64,000 nucleotides of DNA from a bacterium (GCA_038128225.1 JAYPJF010000002.1:191751-255750), one strand, 5' to 3'. Positions 45,041 through 54,758 are shown, counted from the first letter of the stretch. Notes: generated from the letters alone by a model not told the origin. Numbers and translations: made by a program.

Positions 45041-45113
45041 TCCGCGGTAGCTCAGTCGGTAGAGCGGCTCGCTGTTAACGAGTTGGTCGTAGGTTCGAAT
45101 CCTACCCGCGGAG
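45041..45113 (+). tRNA. tRNA-Asn (anticodon GTT); CCA is encoded at 45114-45116
   Basis: TCCGCGG/CCGCGGA acceptor, anticodon loop CTGTTAA and T-loop GGTTCGAATCC. Confidence 0.85.
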
Positions 45114-46814
45114 CCAGTTAGGAATAGAGGCGGCGAAAGCTGCCTCTTTCCTTTTGGTGTAGCCCTTCTTTTCAGGTTCGAGCGTAGCAAGTAGCTGTTT
45201 CTGGTCCCGAAGCTCGTTTTCAATGAGCAAATACGGGTGCAGCCTTTCAATGCTTAGTTTTTTGTCCTTAAGGGTTAGGTTCGAGCCGATGGTTGAAAAT
45301 ATCTCCCGTTTCTTCTGTAACGGAGCGTCTTCGTTGAAATGTCTTTTCGCAAAGGCACAGAAATTGAACGTACGTTCAGCAACGGCGAGGTCATGGTCAA
45401 ACTTCTCTCTAGTACCACCCATTTCTTTTTCAATGCGCGTTCGCTCCGTGACTAAAGCTTTTTTCTCTTGAGCAAATTCATCGGGGGTATACAGCTCGTG
45501 GTGAGAATTCTGTGGTGAGGTAAATATCTTGCTCAAATTAGCAAGCCTTGTTTGGCAGTCATCATATGCCGCCTGAAGAGACACGCGCACCGTCTTCTCT
45601 TCTTTAGTAGAGGTCTTCTGCTTTTCCTGAAGGTAATCGAGGGCTAAGGTTAGGTAATCCTCATCAATGGTAATTTTCTCAAGCTCCTTGTTGAATTGTG
45701 ATTCTAGGTCTTCTACACGCACATGCTTTTGCGTGCAGTCCCGATTCTTTTTCTTGGTGCAGTGATAGTAAACATATTTCAAAATGACAGGATTCTGCAT
45801 TTCGGAAACGTCAGTCAAACATTTCGGGCAATCAGTCCTGTTTTGACTTGAAAACTTGAATTTGCAGTTTGAGCAAATAATCTGATTTTTCTCTTCAGCC
45901 GTGATGGTCGAATCACATTCACCGCAGCGCATTAGACCTGTGAAAGCGAACTCGTGGAGCTGCATTCGAGGCTTACCTTTCTTGCCTAAAAGAAGCTGCG
46001 CACGCTGATACTCCTTTTCAGTAATCATTGGAGGATGATTACCTTTTATCATTTTCTCTTCGCCAGTTTCAGGGTCTGTCCAAGGAAAATAGCCGTAATA
46101 AAAAGGGTCTTTTAGGATGTTGTACATGTGGCTCATCGTAGGAGGATTGCCACCAATCTTCCTGTGCTTGAGGGTTCTCAAGCCCCACTCGTTTATTGCA
46201 ATGTCACGAATCTTGGAAACAGGATAGCTTCCCGTAAGAAAGAGGTCCCATATTTTTCTCACCAACTCAAAACGTTCTGGGTCCGCAGCAATAGTTTTGC
46301 TGCCTTTTTCAGTGCCAACGTTGATATATCCAATCGGACCACCTGAAGGTCGCCAACCGCGTTGAGCTTTACTGTTCAAACCACGTTTAACAACTCTCGA
46401 AAGTCGCATGACGTAATCTGTCGCACGACCACTCTCTATACTCATCAGAAGCCCCGCGTCCTGCGGATAATACGAGCGTGTAGGAGTTTTTATAACTTTA
46501 ATAACCTCATTCTGCAGCATCCACTGGAGCCTGCCGCTATCAATGGGATTTCGAGAAAGACGGTCTACGTCCCAGCAAATTAGCGCGTTTGCCTCTTCGC
46601 GCTCGATACGCTCAAGCATTTGATTAAAGACACTTCGACCAGGGGCTTTCGCACTGCGCTCTTCAGTAAAAGGTTTTGCGACCAACACCAAACTCTCTCG
46701 CTCGCACTGCTTTTTGAGCGCTCCGATTTGGTCGTCTATGGATGCAATCTGGCGTTGAGAATCCTCGGAACTTTTACGACAGTATGCAAAGAATTTAAGA
46801 GTTTCCGTTTTCAT
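45102..46814 (-). CDS. Large serine recombinase (resolvase/invertase N-terminal domain, recombinase domain, zinc ribbon)
   Basis: YCRKSSEDSQRQ catalytic Ser motif. About 570 aa with a C-terminal Cys-rich zinc ribbon and coiled coil. Confidence 0.85.
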   Translation of the reverse strand: MKTETLKFFAYCRKSSEDSQRQIASIDDQIGALKKQCERESLVLVAKPFTEERSAKAPGRSVFNQMLERIEREEANALICWDVDRLSRNPIDSGRLQWMLQNEVIKVIKTPTRSYYPQDAGLLMSIESGRATDYVMRLSRVVKRGLNSKAQRGWRPSGGPIGYINVGTEKGSKTIAADPERFELVRKIWDLFLTGSYPVSKIRDIAINEWGLRTLKHRKIGGNPPTMSHMYNILKDPFYYGYFPWTDPETGEEKMIKGNHPPMITEKEYQRAQLLLGKKGKPRMQLHEFAFTGLMRCGECDSTITAEEKNQIICSNCKFKFSSQNRTDCPKCLTDVSEMQNPVILKYVYYHCTKKKNRDCTQKHVRVEDLESQFNKELEKITIDEDYLTLALDYLQEKQKTSTKEEKTVRVSLQAAYDDCQTRLANLSKIFTSPQNSHHELYTPDEFAQEKKALVTERTRIEKEMGGTREKFDHDLAVAERTFNFCAFAKRHFNEDAPLQKKREIFSTIGSNLTLKDKKLSIERLHPYLLIENELRDQKQLLATLEPEKKGYTKRKEAAFAASIPNWLRG

Positions 46815-46815
46815 A

Positions 46816-47067
46816 TCACCTCAAAAGAGAACGAATTTTTCCTGTAAGCTGCTGTAACTTAGTCTCAAGCTGAACAACATATTCCAAAAAAGAATCGTCC
46901 CGAAAGTACACACCGAAACATTTGGAGCATGCGTATTTTTCAGTACCCCAAATCCTCTTAAGTTTACAGGAAAGACAAGGTTTTTTCATGGCAATTTTGC
47001 TTGCTTTGTAATATGTGCTGCCAAGCTGCCAACCTGATTCCTTAAGGAAAGAAAAACAACTTGGCAA
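46816..47067 (-). CDS. Small zinc-finger protein (CxxC...CxxC)
   Basis: 83-aa ORF with two CxxC pairs, directly upstream of the recombinase. Confidence 0.35.
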   Translation of the reverse strand: MPSCFSFLKESGWQLGSTYYKASKIAMKKPCLSCKLKRIWGTEKYACSKCFGVYFRDDSFLEYVVQLETKLQQLTGKIRSLLR

Positions 47068-47082
47068 TTTGGCAATGGATTA

Positions 47083-48225
47083 TTAAATATCATCAAAAAT
47101 CGAATTTTCTTCTGTGGGAGATACTATCCCTGCAAGGGCTTCCTCCTCTTTAGGCAAGAAGTAGGAATTCTGCTTACCAACCTTTACGGAATTAATTTTG
47201 CCTAAAAGAACTAGCTCTCGAAGCGCCTGGCGAACATTCTTTTGACCCGCATCTTTTTTAGTGATTTCAAGTAGCTCGTTAGTTGTTCGCATCTCGCCTG
47301 AAGAGAGAACATCCAATATCAGGGATTTGGCGGTCTCTTTCTTGTTTGCATCTTCTTCAATTTCACCTAGGTAGTCGAACTTAAAGACAGTACGACCGTC
47401 CTCCACGCCATCGGTAATCTTCACCGCAAAAGGCTTTATTTCGCTCCCTAGGCGATTTTTACGCTGATAGAAGTGTGTCTCCCCAGACACTTCATCTTTC
47501 CTGAGCATGAGGAGTGTTTCTACACTCGCTACCTTGTCTTGAGAACCAAAAAGCTGCTCTTTTTTTGGTATTTTTCCTTCAAACTGCTGATTCTTGCGTA
47601 GGTGTTCTGTGAATATGACCGACACGCCAGAATTTTTCAGAATCTGGAACTTCTGGAAGAAATGCCGTACTTCTTCTGCCTTTTCTTCGCGCATCCCGCC
47701 TGTGGCAGGACGGAAGGTATCAATGATGAGAACATCAATTTTGTTCTTAAGGATATAGTTCAGAAGCCAACGGTATTTCTTATCTTCTTCGCCCGTACCG
47801 TTCAAATTAAAATCATCCTCATTGAGGATAAAAAGGTTTTCATTTGAAGGGTCAAATTTCATCATTCGACCTCGCCTCTGCATTTCGCTCACTGCCATTT
47901 CCAGATTTACATACAGAACTCTGCATTTTTCAGTTTTGAATCGTGTATCCCCAAACCAGGGTGTACCTGTTGTAAGGCACTCCGACAGATGCATTATGGC
48001 TATAGACTTTCCTTCACCAGAAACAGAAGCCACGATTGATACGCCTTCTTTTGGGAAAAGGTCTTTAACTAGCCATCGGTCATCTGGGAAAGAAAGCTTA
48101 TCTATGTCCGCCCAAAGCACAGGTTCAGGCTGTTTGCGTTCCTCGCGCACAAAATCCCATTCGCGCGGTGCGCCACCTAGACTTTCGATATGCTCTTCAA
48201 GCTTTTGCCATTTTTCTTCCTGCAT
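47083..48225 (-). CDS. RecA-like P-loop ATPase of the RepA/AAA_25 type with C-terminal winged-helix
   Basis: Walker A SGEGKS and Walker B DVLIIDT. Domain order typical of plasmid/ICE RepA-like helicase loaders. Confidence 0.55.
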   Translation of the reverse strand: MQEEKWQKLEEHIESLGGAPREWDFVREERKQPEPVLWADIDKLSFPDDRWLVKDLFPKEGVSIVASVSGEGKSIAIMHLSECLTTGTPWFGDTRFKTEKCRVLYVNLEMAVSEMQRRGRMMKFDPSNENLFILNEDDFNLNGTGEEDKKYRWLLNYILKNKIDVLIIDTFRPATGGMREEKAEEVRHFFQKFQILKNSGVSVIFTEHLRKNQQFEGKIPKKEQLFGSQDKVASVETLLMLRKDEVSGETHFYQRKNRLGSEIKPFAVKITDGVEDGRTVFKFDYLGEIEEDANKKETAKSLILDVLSSGEMRTTNELLEITKKDAGQKNVRQALRELVLLGKINSVKVGKQNSYFLPKEEEALAGIVSPTEENSIFDDI

Positions 48226-48406
48226 ACACTTTCGGCAGAATTACCTCGTCTGCCTTAAGGTGGCTCGTAATTGAACCGACCAGACAAACTAATTTTTCAA
48301 AATACTCAAGAGCCATCTCGTCAGAGATGGTTGTACGGTTTTTTATTTCGTAGAGCGCCTTAAACCTCTTGATGTATTTTTCTTTTTCGACCATGTGATG
48401 CGGCAT
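48197..48406 (-). CDS. Hypothetical small protein
   Basis: ORF only; overlaps the ATPase gene start. Confidence 0.25.
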   Translation of the reverse strand: MPHHMVEKEKYIKRFKALYEIKNRTTISDEMALEYFEKLVCLVGSITSHLKADEVILPKVYAGRKMAKA

Positions 48407-48867
48407 CTGCCGTATCTTGAAAATAGCAATCCGTTATATAAAAGAGAATCCCAATTCTAGGATTCTTTTTTAAAAAATAATGTAGGAAAAAAATAATTAG
48501 TATCAACTCAATATGTCTTAAATATTGGGTCAGTACTAAAACACCTCAACTTAATATCTGGTCAGTATTTTCTTAGTACTAAGCACTTATGCACAGATTT
48601 TCCATGTTCCAAAATACTTTCTTCCTTAAGGCAAGAGTGATTGCTATTTGGGACGAAAATCAGGCATAATGGAAAGACAACTGAATATTGGCTCGCAAGA
48701 GCAGCGACCTAAACCGTCTGAAAAGGCGGCATGGTCGAGGAATCGCGTTCAACATAAAAAACCCGTTATTAGGGCGTTGAACGCGTTATGGAGGGAAACT
48801 TCCATAGAGGTCTTCGGACCTTCCTAGTAGCGGGCTTTTTGTTTGGTTGCTTATCAAAGAAACCAAA

Positions 48868-49119
48868 TATATGTCATTTCTTTTACATGCGTTGCAGGCA
48901 CTAGGTCTGTATCTTCTTTACGGCAAAATCTCTGCCCTTTTATGGTGGGGATTGCTTGCCCTTTTCGTGGCTTTCTATTTTGCAGGAAAAACCTACTACA
49001 ACGTATCGGATTCAGACGACCAAAAGGTAAAAGCTTTTTGGTATCAGATTCGGTCTCTCGTATTTATTACTGATATCGTTTCAGTGTTAGCTCTATATGG
49101 CTATTTCTTCCTACGATAA
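48868..49119 (+). CDS. Hypothetical small membrane protein
   Basis: Three hydrophobic helices. Lies immediately upstream of the 804-aa gene. Confidence 0.3.
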   Translation, partial: YMSFLLHALQALGLYLLYGKISALLWWGLLALFVAFYFAGKTYYNVSDSDDQKVKAFWYQIRSLVFITDIVSVLALYGYFFLR

Positions 49120-49173
49120 TGGATTTTTACTGTATGCCCCAAAAGTCTTCATTTTTGCTAAAATTAATACCTA

Positions 49174-51588
49174 ATGAAAGGCACCGCAAACGTAAAACTT
49201 AGACCTCTGAAATTTGCCTTTTTGGTGAATCCAAATGATTCTAAAAGTCTTGCGCGTGCTTTGGAACTCAACGCTTCTTTATGGGGTGGCAGTTACAACC
49301 CGATAATTCCAACTTTCAATCGTATTCCAGCAGTTTGGCGTAAACGTGGAGATGTTTTTGGACACACAGGTAAAACCATCCTCAAGGGGTATATTGATGC
49401 CTTTAACCCAGACTTTCTGGTTCCACTGGGTGACTGTAAAAAAATGAAGCTTGATGATTTTGGTCGTGATGTAGTTGATGATAAAAATCTTGAGGTAAAC
49501 ACCGCAGACGGAACACCAAATTACGGTGTGGGCATTTTTGAAGTGCTGAAAGGCTTTTTCGATAAAGAACTGAAATTCAAAAGACGATATCCAATAAATT
49601 TTATTTTTCCTATTCTTCCTAAAAAGAATAGGCTTTTTTATCAGAGCATCTTTGGATTACCTTCTAAAGAAATACAAGATGTTCTTGTTGAACATTGGCG
49701 AGAACCGCTTGGCGCTACAGATAAAGAGATAGGCTTTGAGAACTATCTTACTGAAATGCTCGCTTATTATCCAAGAAAGCTGATGCGGTTTGAGATTGAA
49801 GCTTCAAATCGTTCGGGTTGGCAGAAAGGTGAATGCATATTTTTAATGGACGCAAGCAATAATCACGACATTATTGATTATTGGAACCTAAGAGCTAATG
49901 GCTGGTCGGTGCTGCCCGTTGCCATTCAAGGCATGCATCTTGATGCGGTAAAAAACGAGGCTCAAAAATTCATCGAGGAGACTTCGGGTGTTAGTAGGCA
50001 CAATACTCAAATTTATTATCACGCCAATTTGATGAAGGCGCGAAGTGTAGATGAGAAGCATGTAAAAGATTTTGCCGCCTCGCTTTCTCCTAAGCCTGAC
50101 GAAAAGGCACGAGGTTCACGATTCTCAATTCAAGCTTGGTATCCGCGAATGTGGGATGAGTGGGCACGCCATAAAGATGGAGTTGGATTTTGTGAAGTCG
50201 AGAGCAAGTCTAAAAGCTATGACTTTAATGATGAGTCTGATGAGGTTTCGGTAAAAACAGTAGACCCTAAATTTGCTTTTAGGTTCGGAGGACACAACAG
50301 TTATTTTAGGTTTGCGAATGACGTTGCGACTAATAACTACAGTTACGATGACCTATATGCTGATGTGATACCTGAAGGTGGAGAACATCTCACCCGCGCA
50401 CTTAGCTCAATTCATTTTGATGAATGGCGTTTTTCCAAAAGAGGAGCCACTTACATGTCCAAATTTAAAGGTTGGACCATTCATATAAAAGTTCCGAAAG
50501 CAGAAGATGTTTTTACAGCCTGGATGAAAGACCAAGGTCTAGAAATAAACCTGTCTGCTCCAGGGAAAATAGCCAAGCAGATGATAAAACACCTGGGAGG
50601 CATACACGGTACAAATACCCTCGCTAACGAGCACATGATTGCTCTCCTGAAGAACATGGAGTCGGGCAAAGAAATGAATAAGGACCAGTTTTGGGGTGAA
50701 ATATCCAAAGTGGCTTCAACCAGAACCTTTAGGCAAGATGCATCAGAACTACTGAAACATTACGTTGAGAAAAAAATGTTTCAGCTAGGAGTTACTCTTC
50801 AGTGTCCAACCTGCACGCACAGTTCTTGGTACGACATTAAAGCTCTTAATTATGTCGTTACATGTACGAACTGCTTGGAGGAGTTTAATATCCCCACCCA
50901 TTCGCCTAATGATATTAAATGGGCGTACAAAACAAGCGGACCTTTTGGACTTCCTAAAAGAGCAGAAGGCGTGTATCCCACACTTCTAACTTTGCGCATT
51001 TTCTCTTCTCTTTTTCACCATAGCCCAATAACTCCGATGCTTAGTTTTGAAACTAAAATCAAAAATGTGGCGATGGAAGTTGACCTTGGTTTATTTTTCA
51101 GGAAATCTCAATTTAGAGAGGAGGACGAAACACGAGTTATTTTTGCTGAATGCAAATCTGAAAACAGCTTTGCTAAAAGTGATATAGATAAGATGAAATT
51201 AATCGCCGAAAAGTTCCCTGGTGCTGTATTGGTATTTGCGACTCTTAAGGAAGAGCTAAACTCAAAAGAAGTTGCTCTACTCAAACCACTTGTAAATAAA
51301 TGCCGCCGATATTACAAAAACGAGGAGCCTTATAACCCAGTAATGATTCTCACCAAGACAGAATTGTTTTCTTCTTGGGATTTGAATCAGACCTGGAAAG
51401 AAAAAGGCGGTAAATATGCCCCCTTCGGCGACAGACACTATTACGGCGATGAGTTGCTTAGCGTGTGTGATGCAACGCAGCAACTATATTTAGGCATGAA
51501 GCCTTGGAATGATTTTATACACGAGCAGTTTGAAAAGAGGAGGAAAAAGAAAGCATTAGCAACACCAGGAACGGCGCTAAACCCGTGA
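49174..51588 (+). CDS. Large orphan protein (804 aa) with central CxxC...CxxC zinc ribbon and C-terminal PD-(D/E)xK-like motif
   Basis: CPTCTHSSWYDIKALNYVVTCTNC zinc ribbon. EVDLGLFF...RVIFAECKS fits hhD...ExK. No match to any family I recognise. Confidence 0.45.
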   Translation: MKGTANVKLRPLKFAFLVNPNDSKSLARALELNASLWGGSYNPIIPTFNRIPAVWRKRGDVFGHTGKTILKGYIDAFNPDFLVPLGDCKKMKLDDFGRDVVDDKNLEVNTADGTPNYGVGIFEVLKGFFDKELKFKRRYPINFIFPILPKKNRLFYQSIFGLPSKEIQDVLVEHWREPLGATDKEIGFENYLTEMLAYYPRKLMRFEIEASNRSGWQKGECIFLMDASNNHDIIDYWNLRANGWSVLPVAIQGMHLDAVKNEAQKFIEETSGVSRHNTQIYYHANLMKARSVDEKHVKDFAASLSPKPDEKARGSRFSIQAWYPRMWDEWARHKDGVGFCEVESKSKSYDFNDESDEVSVKTVDPKFAFRFGGHNSYFRFANDVATNNYSYDDLYADVIPEGGEHLTRALSSIHFDEWRFSKRGATYMSKFKGWTIHIKVPKAEDVFTAWMKDQGLEINLSAPGKIAKQMIKHLGGIHGTNTLANEHMIALLKNMESGKEMNKDQFWGEISKVASTRTFRQDASELLKHYVEKKMFQLGVTLQCPTCTHSSWYDIKALNYVVTCTNCLEEFNIPTHSPNDIKWAYKTSGPFGLPKRAEGVYPTLLTLRIFSSLFHHSPITPMLSFETKIKNVAMEVDLGLFFRKSQFREEDETRVIFAECKSENSFAKSDIDKMKLIAEKFPGAVLVFATLKEELNSKEVALLKPLVNKCRRYYKNEEPYNPVMILTKTELFSSWDLNQTWKEKGGKYAPFGDRHYYGDELLSVCDATQQLYLGMKPWNDFIHEQFEKRRKKKALATPGTALNP

Positions 51589-51830
51589 AGACCTCGAACT
51601 TGACACATTTTGACAACCCTCCAGTAGACAAAGTAAAATATGAGGACAGTATGATGACGCGAGAGAAATTTCTGACCCTTAAGGAAGTTGCGAAAATTCT
51701 GCGTGTCAGCGAGAGGTCAATTTTCCGTTATATTCACGGCGGCAAGTTGAAGGCAAGCAAAATTGGGTACTGGCGAATACGCGAAAAGGACCTTGAGGAC
51801 TTTCTCGCAAAGAACCGCGCTTCAAAGTAA
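51585..51830 (+). CDS. Excisionase/MerR-like HTH (HTH_17) DNA-binding protein
   Basis: LTLKEVAKILRVSERSIFRYI helix-turn-helix. GTG start overlaps the upstream stop. An alternative Met start lies near 51651. Confidence 0.55.
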   Translation: MKTSNLTHFDNPPVDKVKYEDSMMTREKFLTLKEVAKILRVSERSIFRYIHGGKLKASKIGYWRIREKDLEDFLAKNRASK

Positions 51831-51834
51831 CAAT

Positions 51835-52767
51835 ATGAAAACGGCAACTGCATCAAAAATGACAATCAACAAGAAACCTGCAAAGAAGGCGGCAAAAAAG
51901 ACGTACAAAATTATTGACCTTTTTGCGGGTATCGGCGGCTTTCACATTGCTTTCCACAATCTCGGCGTAGAAACAGTTTTTGCGAGCGAATGGGACGAGC
52001 ACGCACGTAAAACTTACGAGCACAATTTCAAGAAAATTACGCCTTCTCTTTTTGAGAACGGAAACTTTGCAGGCGACATCACAAAGGTAGATGCGGCTTC
52101 AATCCCTGATTTTGATATTTTGACCGGCGGTTTCCCTTGCCAGCCGTTCAGTCAGGCGGGTTTCAAAAAAGGTTTTTCTGATGTGCGCGGGACACTTTTC
52201 TTTGACATCGTTCGCATCATTGATACAAAACGCCCAGTCGCTTTCTTTATTGAAAATGTACGTCATCTCCTCAACCACGATGACGGCAAAACCTTTGCGA
52301 CAATCAAAAAAGTAATTGAGGAGGACTTGGGGTACTCTTTCCACGCAAAAATAATAAAAGCGTCCGACTTCGGCTTGCCGCAACACCGACCTCGCCTGTA
52401 TATGGTCGGTTTCCGTGACAAAAAAATACCTTTCAATTTCCCTGAACCGATACCGCTTCAAGCGAGTATGTCTGATGTATTCGGAGCACCCGTGAACAAA
52501 AAAGTGGGTTATACCCTCCGACTTGGCGGCCGCGGTTCTGGTCTGCACGACCGCAGAAATTGGGATACTTACCTCGTCAAAGGAAAGGCCCGCAGATTGT
52601 CACCGAAAGAAGGAAAGAAAATGATGGGCATACCAGACGATTTTGAGTTTCCTGTGTCAGAAGCACAGGCAATGAGGCAACTCGGCAACAGTGTCGCTGT
52701 AAATGCGATACAGGCCACTGCCGCGGAAATTATCAACTCACTCAACAACTACTATGGCAAAAGGTAA
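51835..52767 (+). CDS. DNA (cytosine-5)-methyltransferase
   Basis: Motif I DLFAGIGGF, motif IV GFPCQPFS and motif VI ENV. C-terminal QLGNSV. Confidence 0.9.
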   Translation: MKTATASKMTINKKPAKKAAKKTYKIIDLFAGIGGFHIAFHNLGVETVFASEWDEHARKTYEHNFKKITPSLFENGNFAGDITKVDAASIPDFDILTGGFPCQPFSQAGFKKGFSDVRGTLFFDIVRIIDTKRPVAFFIENVRHLLNHDDGKTFATIKKVIEEDLGYSFHAKIIKASDFGLPQHRPRLYMVGFRDKKIPFNFPEPIPLQASMSDVFGAPVNKKVGYTLRLGGRGSGLHDRRNWDTYLVKGKARRLSPKEGKKMMGIPDDFEFPVSEAQAMRQLGNSVAVNAIQATAAEIINSLNNYYGKR

Positions 52768-53833
52768 TAAAGGCGAATGGAGTGAGTTCTATACGTTCCT
52801 GAAACTGCTTGCAGAAAAGCAGTTGAACGGTGCGGACGAAAATCTGCAAAAGATAGAGGATATTTTCTATCCGATTTTGAAAGTAATCCGCGAAGAAGCA
52901 ACGGGCAGAATGGATTACGAACTTGCCGAAAACAACAAAGTGAAGGTTGTGCAAACAGGTACAGAAGTCGCCCTCGTAGATGCTTCGGACCTCAAGTCGA
53001 AAGTGGTCCAGATATTTCAGACAATACGCGACAATCAGGATACTACTTTTGAAATCCCAGAAGCGGACGAACTGATGACTCGGTTCCATTCAAAGAAGTT
53101 GAGCGCTGGTAACTCTCACAAGGAAGACATCACTCTCAAAATTCACGACCGTATTACGGGCGCAATGCCGGAAGTCGGGTTCAGCATCAAATCAATGCTC
53201 GGTGCGGCATCCACACTTCTCAACCCTTCCGCCGCAACCAACTTTATTTACAAAATCTCGGGCCTTGATGAGAGTAAGATAGACGAAATAAACGCAATTG
53301 ATACTCGCTCAAAAGTACGTGACCGTCTTTCAGCAATTGTTGCGGCTGGCGGCAGTTTCTCCTATGCGGGCATCAGTTCAGATACGTTCACAAAAAACTT
53401 GAGGCGGGTGGATACGGTTCTGCCTGAAATAATGGCGCAGCTTCTTCTTGCCTTCTATCTCGGTAAGGGCAACGGGTTGCCAGACCTTATTTCAAATTTG
53501 GGTGACGGAGAAACCAACATTCTCACCTTCACGCTGGACCGCTCCGATTACGAGTTCAAGGTCAAAGGTCTCTTGCACAATGTAGCCCTCGGAATGGTGC
53601 CCGATACCGCTTGGGACGGCCTTATACGCGCTCACGGGGGCTATATCATCGTCAGGGAGGACGGAGAGGTGGTCTGTTACCACGTCTACAACGCAGATGC
53701 TTTCAGGTCTTACCTGTACAAGAACACCCGATTTGATACCCCCAGCACGACCCGCTACGGGTTCGGGAAGGTCTACAAGGAAGGCAACGACCTTTTCATG
53801 AAACTGACCCTGCAAATCAGGTTCATCAGATAA
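52754..53833 (+). CDS. Type II restriction endonuclease (HpaII-family-like) paired with the C5-methyltransferase
   Basis: Overlaps the methyltransferase stop by 14 nt. N-terminus MAKGNKGEWSEFYTFLKLL resembles R.HpaII-family proteins as I recall them. Confidence 0.5.
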   Translation: MAKGNKGEWSEFYTFLKLLAEKQLNGADENLQKIEDIFYPILKVIREEATGRMDYELAENNKVKVVQTGTEVALVDASDLKSKVVQIFQTIRDNQDTTFEIPEADELMTRFHSKKLSAGNSHKEDITLKIHDRITGAMPEVGFSIKSMLGAASTLLNPSAATNFIYKISGLDESKIDEINAIDTRSKVRDRLSAIVAAGGSFSYAGISSDTFTKNLRRVDTVLPEIMAQLLLAFYLGKGNGLPDLISNLGDGETNILTFTLDRSDYEFKVKGLLHNVALGMVPDTAWDGLIRAHGGYIIVREDGEVVCYHVYNADAFRSYLYKNTRFDTPSTTRYGFGKVYKEGNDLFMKLTLQIRFIR

Positions 53834-53837
53834 AAAT

Positions 53838-54251
53838 ATGGCGGACCGCATCTCACAATCACAGCGGTCAAAAAATATGGCCGCAGTCAAAAGCCGCGGC
53901 AATAAAACCACGGAGCAAAAACTTCTCGTTCTTTTGAGAGAAAATAAAATTACAGGTTGGCGCAGGCACTACAAGAAACTTGCCGGCACACCCGACTTTG
54001 CCTTTCCTAAACGGAAGGTGGCGGTCTTCGTTGACGGCTGTTTCTGGCACGGGTGCGAATGCTCAAGTATTCCTAAAACAAACAGAAAGTTTTGGAAAGA
54101 GAAGATAAATGGAAATATCAAAAGAGACAAACTCGTGGTTTCACTGCTACGTAAAAAGGGATGGTTTCCAATCCGCATCAAAGAACATGAATTCAAAAAT
54201 AATAAAATACCCACCAACCTTTTAAACAGACTTGGTGTTAAATACGGATGA
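53838..54251 (+). CDS. vsr: Very short patch repair endonuclease Vsr
   Basis: FVDGCFWHGC motif and about 137 aa. Located downstream of the C5-methyltransferase and endonuclease. Confidence 0.85.
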   Translation: MADRISQSQRSKNMAAVKSRGNKTTEQKLLVLLRENKITGWRRHYKKLAGTPDFAFPKRKVAVFVDGCFWHGCECSSIPKTNRKFWKEKINGNIKRDKLVVSLLRKKGWFPIRIKEHEFKNNKIPTNLLNRLGVKYG

Positions 54252-54291
54252 CTTTTGGATAGGTTGTCCTGTGGCGGTATTTCCTCGGCAC

Positions 54292-54330
54292 GGGGGGCCA
54301 CTTTGGGGGGATACCTAGGGGGTATGGGGG
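54292..54330 (+). repeat. Four consecutive G5-6 tracts (G-quadruplex-forming motif)
   Basis: GGGGGG-N7-GGGGGG-N7-GGGGG-N3-GGGGG read directly. Confidence 0.5.
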
Positions 54331-54758
54331 TATTTTTTAACTTAATACTAAGTCAGTACTACGCAGCTCTGGCACATAAAAATCGTCCGAGTTATCCTGA
54401 ATCCACGTTCGGATTGCCTCAACGGTGTGGAGCTTGGTAACGCTTGGGATTTCTTGTGAATCGTTGTTTGTCGCCTTTAAGTGTCTATACTTAGTGCATG
54501 ACAAACAATGATGTAGAACTTGTAGATGTGGTTGATGAGAAGGGCAATGTTTTGGAAGTAGTGCCTAAACCGGACGCTCATAAGCGGGGGCTTCTTCACA
54601 AGACAGTAATGGAGCATTACGCAACGACTATCTCTGAGGCCGATAACTTCAAATACCGATTATTTCTTTTTAGTTTCGCCCGCTAATATTGACATACTGT
54701 CGTATCTGTGATATCGTTAGTGCGGCTATCGTGTCCTTTAGATATTGGGAGAAAGCAA

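What the first reader, a model, noticed from the sequence alone, without database searches (positions are those of the whole stretch)
45041..54360. Integrative island abutting tRNA-Asn: serine recombinase gene ends inside the tRNA
The last four codons and the TAG stop of a 570-aa large serine recombinase are encoded by the 3' end of tRNA-Asn(GTT), which is the usual arrangement for an element integrated at a tRNA. GC drops sharply across about 9 kb. The gene content is recombinase, zinc-finger gene, RepA-like ATPase, an origin-like AT-rich region, the orphan 804-aa gene, an excisionase HTH and an R-M+Vsr module. This is a compact integrative, possibly replicative, defence island.
Basis: partly seen in the sequence, partly recalled or inferred. 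Interest (0 to 1): 0.7.

Follow-up and report, generated by a model that had tools for sequence, protein, structure and literature searches.

The report
Serine-integrase island in tRNA-Asn end
A 9.3-kb mobile element carrying anti-phage genes sits exactly at the 3' end of a tRNA-Asn gene in a Patescibacteria genome, put there by a large serine integrase from a big, apparently undescribed clade that targets tRNA gene ends and usually carries the orphan LOOT RNA.

Summary
tRNA-Asn(GTT) is at 45041-45116. The 570-aa large serine recombinase (LSR) ORF (45102-46814, minus strand) ends 15 nt inside it. GC is 0.434 against 0.501±0.007 elsewhere in the window.

A metagenome contig of the same species (100% identical flanks) lacks the island. 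This fixes the insert at 9,319 bp, between two GGAGC copies (45110-14 and 54429-33).

This arrangement is a family trait. In 52 of 64 informative related loci the LSR ORF runs into the 3' end of a tRNA gene (nine tRNA identities). Eight more loci show P-core-P' (attP-like) junctions.

The far-end P arm (ATCCAC-GTTCTAAC-TGCCTCAAC-N5-tRNA tail) is conserved. Its T-loop-like GTTC box lies exactly 5 bp further from the core than the real T-loop in all eight comparable pairs. That is the known attP/attB offset of serine integrases.

The backbone is LOOT RNA, a 69-aa gene, an AAA_25 helicase, a Zn-finger gene and the LSR. The cargo is defence genes: an HpaII-type R-M system with Vsr, and an 804-aa predicted PD-(D/E)xK nuclease that has 441 homologues and so is not an orphan. 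A sister element carries an Avs4-like gene instead.

Mobility itself is inferred, not shown. I rate this a new variant of a known kind.

The parts
45041..45116 (+). tRNA-Asn(GTT), the integration target (B arm). Its T-loop box GGTTCGAA is at 45092-45099. The terminal 'CA' of CCA (45115-16) is supplied by the island.
   Evidence: Rfam tRNA, 73.5 bits. L025 shares the tRNA up to GGAGC and then diverges. Only 2 of the 7 tRNA genes in the window encode CCA.
45110..45114 (+). attL core GGAGC, the left copy of the only exact repeat. The crossover dinucleotide is probably GG (45110-11) or GA (45111-12).
   Evidence: The dyad in the reconstructed attP and in the L076/L099 attP junctions points to this position.
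45115..45157 (+). P' arm (CAGTTAGGAATAG...) plus a hairpin AGAGGCGGC-GAAA-GCTGCCTCT and a T-run. This is a terminator-like site for the tRNA, lying inside the last codons of the LSR.
   Evidence: It is the first-listed terminator-like site, with the joint-most stem pairs and G-C pairs (9 pairs, 6 G-C). The same CCA-N12-hairpin-T-run layout recurs in relatives on many different tRNAs.
45102..46814 (-). Large serine recombinase, 570 aa in the integrated form. The last two residues and the stop codon are read from host tRNA DNA. The excised form is predicted to be 598 aa.
   Evidence: Pfam PF00239, PF07508 and PF13408. PHROG integrase, 2.3e-55. Family alignment A1 with invariant R13/S15 and the Cys ligands. 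Tail swap computed.
46816..47067 (-). Small CxxC...CxxC zinc-finger ORF whose stop abuts the LSR start. It is a positional candidate for the directionality factor.
   Evidence: no Pfam match. A small, poorly conserved ORF occupies the same slot in relatives, and most of these have Cys pairs.
47083..48225 (-). AAA_25 (RepA/DnaB-like) ATPase with a C-terminal winged-helix-like tail; the putative replication helicase.
   Evidence: Pfam AAA_25, 9.5e-32. PHROG primase/helicase families. Relatives carry Prim-Pol+AAA_25 fusions or D5_N/DUF5906 in this slot.
48197..48406 (-). Conserved 69-aa backbone gene (fam2), function unknown.
   Evidence: Present in 7 of the close relatives. No Pfam or PHROG match.
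48503..48582 (+). Two iteron-like repeats, AACTyAATA...GTCAGTAyT. They may be an operator or an origin.
   Evidence: Both sub-motifs occur only inside the island (3 copies each).
48700..48828 (+). LOOT RNA (Rfam RF03000), at the border between backbone and cargo.
   Evidence: Rfam 75.6 bits against a gathering score of 46.4. Own covariance model R1, 112.6 bits. Present in all close relatives.
48847..49119 (+). 90-aa hydrophobic ORF, function unknown.
   Evidence: No family match.
49174..51588 (+). 804-aa cargo protein: Rossmann-like N-terminal parts, a CxxC..CxxC zinc ribbon, and a C-terminal PD-(D/E)xK-type nuclease (D637, E659-x-K661). Predicted defence effector.
   Evidence: 441 homologues. 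Conserved residues in alignment A2. AlphaFold2 model with pLDDT 88. Fold matches to FokI, Can2, Card1, Cdn1 and MspJI. Found in defence contexts elsewhere.
51585..51830 (+). HTH_17 protein at the head of the R-M operon. It may be a regulator or an excisionase-like protein.
   Evidence: Pfam HTH_17, 9.2e-16. PADLOC mad1, 8e-10. PHROG excisionase/regulator. An 11-of-12 promoter-like site lies at 51610-51639.
51763..52767 (+). C5 cytosine DNA methyltransferase.
   Evidence: Pfam 3.1e-81. PADLOC MTase_II, 9.8e-104.
52703..53833 (+). HpaII-family restriction endonuclease.
   Evidence: Pfam RE_HpaII, 5.7e-112. CCGG is depleted in the island: 3 observed against 20.8 expected.
53838..54251 (+). Vsr very-short-patch repair endonuclease.
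   Evidence: Pfam 3.3e-20.
54339..54360 (+). Third copy of the iteron-like motif, about 45 nt inside the P arm.
54401..54433 (+). attR: the P arm ATCCAC-GTTCGGAT-TGCCTCAAC-GGTGT followed by the core GGAGC (54429-54433). Host DNA (B') starts at 54434.
   Evidence: L025 is identical to the window from 64000 down to 54429. The homologous P arm sits at the far end of relatives. The +5 bp offset of the GTTC box is shown.

Best explanation
Window 45112-54430 is a 9,319-bp non-viral integrative element.

Integration. Its own large serine recombinase inserted it at the very 3' end of the host's tRNA-Asn(GTT) gene. Exchange occurred at a GG/GA dinucleotide inside GGAGC (end of the acceptor stem plus discriminator).

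Site architecture. attP spans the last codons of the recombinase gene, so integration swaps the enzyme's C-terminal tail (598 aa excised, 570 aa integrated). The tRNA is left intact. The element supplies the tRNA's encoded CA and a terminator hairpin.

Target recognition (inferred). The zinc-ribbon domain reads the near-universal T-loop box GTTCnAn. The inner contacts read the acceptor-stem tail. This would explain how sister enzymes have moved to nine different tRNAs.

Content. The conserved backbone is LOOT RNA, a 69-aa gene, an AAA_25 helicase, a Zn-finger gene and the LSR. It probably supports episomal replication and regulation after excision. The interchangeable cargo is anti-phage defence: here an HpaII-type R-M system with Vsr and an 804-aa predicted nuclease.

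Shown: the anatomy, the boundaries, the presence/absence polymorphism, the family-wide pattern and the att architecture. Inferred: actual recombination, replication, the directionality factor and the role of LOOT.
For: Boundaries:
- L025 (DRR685536) matches the window at 100% from 64000 to 54429. It then carries 1.5 kb of unrelated DNA and ends in the tRNA-Asn 3' part up to GGAGC.
- GGAGC is the only exact repeat at the two ends.
- Composition: GC 0.4345 against 0.501 ± 0.007.

LSR identity: all three Pfam domains.

Family pattern:
- Of 80 loci from the metagenome scan, 48 show a direct overlap of the LSR ORF with a tRNA 3' end.
- 4 more abut an intron-containing tRNA-Asn.
- 8 show P-core-P' junctions.
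- 16 are truncated by the contig end.

Conserved P arm at the far end, 6.8-11.6 kb from the tRNA in WIN, L028, L029/30, L031, L033, L034, L097/98 and L047.

The GTTC box lies exactly 5 bp further from the core in P than in B in 8 of 8 pairs. This matches the rule of Rutherford et al. 2013 (PMC3783163).

Dyad symmetry is seen in attP junctions, for example L076 CACGAT-GCGG|AGCC-ATCGTG.

Backbone conservation. LOOT is present in 10 of 10 close relatives with enough flank, and in 29 loci overall.

Cargo swapping: L172 has the same backbone (81% nt identity) and the same tRNA junction, but an Avs4-like gene. L028 carries a Dsr1-like gene.

CCGG depletion in the island.
Against: - No excised circle and no truly empty attB was observed. 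The alternative allele is occupied by another insert, so B' and the exact crossover are deduced from two occupied alleles.
- The P' arm shows only weak symmetry with the P arm in the window's element.
- P'-arm conservation cannot be separated from protein-coding constraint.
- No recombination directionality factor can be named.
- No conjugation or packaging genes are present, so the means of cell-to-cell transfer is unknown.
- Replication is inferred only from the helicase gene and the repeats.
Confidence: 0.85

Rival explanations
1. The island is a fixed, decayed remnant. It is no longer mobile, and the LSR ORF runs into the tRNA only because the next stop codon happens to lie there.
For: No circular junction or empty site was found for this element. 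Logan contigs break inside the island. The tail after Trp-Leu is variable in the family.
Against: - All backbone ORFs are intact.
- The LSR keeps its invariant catalytic and zinc-ligand residues.
- Presence/absence polymorphism occurs with 100% identical flanks.
- A sister element at 81% identity carries different cargo at the same tRNA junction.
- attP-type junctions exist for relatives.
- The ORF/tRNA overlap recurs in 52 of 64 loci.
Confidence: 0.08
2. It is a prophage remnant or a phage satellite (PICI/P4-like). In that case it would be moved and packaged by a helper phage, with the LSR acting as a phage-type integrase.
For: - The LSR matches the PHROG integrase family, and the AAA_25 protein matches phage primase/helicase families.
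- Relatives carry D5-like or Prim-Pol primase-helicases, as satellites do.
- No own transfer genes were found.
Against: - No capsid, terminase, portal or lysis gene was found in 9.3 kb.
- The LSR clade is almost absent from IMG/VR: 1 distant hit, against more than 560 in metagenomes.
- Identity to any LSR in 50,697 phage records is 28% or less.
Confidence: 0.12
3. Integration was done by a classical tRNA-targeting tyrosine integrase, with duplication of a tRNA 3' segment. The LSR would then be only a passenger, such as a resolvase or invertase.
For: tRNA 3' ends are the classic tyrosine-integrase target. The P arm is a degenerate 28-nt look-alike of the tRNA 3' end.
Against: - No tyrosine recombinase is present in or next to the island.
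- Only 5 bp are exactly repeated.
- The tRNA look-alike carries a precise 5-bp insertion in every element, which is the LSR attP signature.
- The LSR homology ends exactly at the tRNA end across nine tRNA types.
Confidence: 0.02

Closest known systems
Phage-type large serine integrases (Listeria A118/LI, phiC31, Bxb1, SPbeta)
   Same: - Same three-domain architecture.
- Short att sites with imperfect dyad symmetry around a non-palindromic central dinucleotide.
- An outer (ZD) motif 5 bp further out in attP than in attB.
   Different: - Only distantly related: A118 integrase matches at E about 3e-4, and identity to any phage or plasmid LSR is 28% or less.
- The target is the 3' end of a tRNA gene, not a protein-coding gene.
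- attP overlaps the integrase's own stop codon.
- The element is not a phage.
SCCmec / SCC elements (CcrAB large serine recombinases at the 3' end of rlmH/orfX) (from my own knowledge)
   Same: - Non-phage cargo islands moved by LSRs.
- Inserted at the extreme 3' end of a conserved housekeeping gene without inactivating it.
- Tandem or composite arrays at the same site, as in L029/L030/L031 here.
   Different: - Different target (a tRNA), and a single recombinase rather than a CcrA/CcrB pair.
- The backbone has a helicase and LOOT RNA.
- The host phylum is Patescibacteria.
Tyrosine-integrase genomic islands in tRNA/tmRNA genes (Islander-type)
   Same: Same target class and sublocation (the 3' end of a tRNA). 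The integrase gene sits next to the tRNA. The island is polymorphic and has low GC.
   Different: The recombinase family is different. There is no duplicated tRNA segment, only a 5-bp core. Mageeney et al. 2020 state that S-Int use of t(m)RNA genes was unreported, with 14 of 297 predicted cases.
phiRSM-type small serine recombinase integrases. They are named in PMC7192596. Their tRNA-Ser target is from my own knowledge.
   Same: A serine-family recombinase integrating a mobile element at a tRNA gene end.
   Different: phiRSM uses a small 'S-core' resolvase-like enzyme without the Recombinase and Zn-ribbon domains, and it is a filamentous phage.
LOOT RNA motif (Rfam RF03000; Weinberg et al. 2017 set, known only from metagenomes)
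   Same: The window and its relatives carry full-length matches well above the gathering score.
   Different: In the papers held here LOOT is described only as a metagenome-derived bacterial RNA with about 43 base pairs in six helices. No genetic context or function is given. Here it sits at a fixed position in a defined mobile element.

Membership tests
Large serine recombinase / serine integrase | N-terminal resolvase catalytic domain with the Ser nucleophile | tested here: met
   PF00239, 1.9e-17, residues 9-153. R13, K14, S15 and Q22 are invariant in 35 homologues.
Large serine recombinase / serine integrase | Recombinase domain followed by a zinc-ribbon domain | tested here: met
   PF07508, 2.4e-8, and PF13408, 8.8e-7. 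Cys 297, 300, 314 and 317 are invariant.
Large serine recombinase / serine integrase | Short att sites with imperfect dyad symmetry and only a few bp of attP/attB identity at the crossover | tested here: met
   The 5-bp GGAGC is the only exact repeat. Dyads are seen in the reconstructed attP and in L076/L099.
Large serine recombinase / serine integrase | Outer (ZD) motif shifted 5 bp toward the centre in attB relative to attP | tested here: met
   The distance from the GTTC box to the core is 17 in B and 22 in P for Asn, 18 and 23 for Ser, and 16 and 21 for His. This holds in 8 of 8 pairs. The rule is quoted from PMC3783163.
Large serine recombinase / serine integrase | Catalyses unidirectional attP x attB recombination, reversed by a directionality factor | not testable with these tools
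   No experiment was possible. The only RDF candidates are positional: the Zn-finger ORF at 46816-47067 and the HTH_17 protein.
Tyrosine-integrase tRNA island | Encodes a tyrosine recombinase | tested here: not met
   None was found among the island or flanking ORFs.
Tyrosine-integrase tRNA island | Exact direct repeat of a tRNA 3' segment (typically 15 bp or more) at the distal end | tested here: not met
   No k-mer of 10 or more from the tRNA 3' end recurs near the right end. Only GGAGC does.
Integrative conjugative element (ICE/AICE) | Relaxase, T4SS or FtsK-like transfer gene | tested here: not met
   No such Pfam family was found in any island ORF.
Prophage | Capsid, terminase, portal, tail and lysis genes | tested here: not met
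   The PHROG scan matches only integrase, helicase/primase and excisionase/HTH families.
Type II R-M, HpaII family, with Vsr | C5 methyltransferase, RE_HpaII endonuclease and Vsr in one operon | tested here: met
   Pfam 3.1e-81, 5.7e-112 and 3.3e-20. PADLOC MTase_II, REase_II and Vsr.
Type II R-M, HpaII family, with Vsr | CCGG specificity | tested here: inconclusive
   CCGG occurs 3 times in the island against 20.8 expected, and 138 times against 211 in the rest of the window. This is consistent, but it is not a specificity assay.
LOOT RNA (RF03000) | Match to the covariance model above the gathering score | tested here: met
   75.6 bits against 46.4, with full model coverage 1-121.

The most novel reading that the evidence does not exclude
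This reading has two parts.

First, this LSR clade is a naturally retargetable family of tRNA-gene integrases. Its zinc-ribbon domain anchors on the universal T-loop box, and only the inner contacts change with the acceptor stem. The downstream half-site B' matters little, since elements also insert into the attL of a resident element.

Second, LOOT RNA is an element-encoded RNA needed for the episomal stage, in replication priming or control. If so, these would be among the first defined plasmid-like replicons of Patescibacteria.
Probability: 0.35. Interest if true: 0.85.

Novelty: new variant of a known kind. Interest (0 to 1): 0.7.

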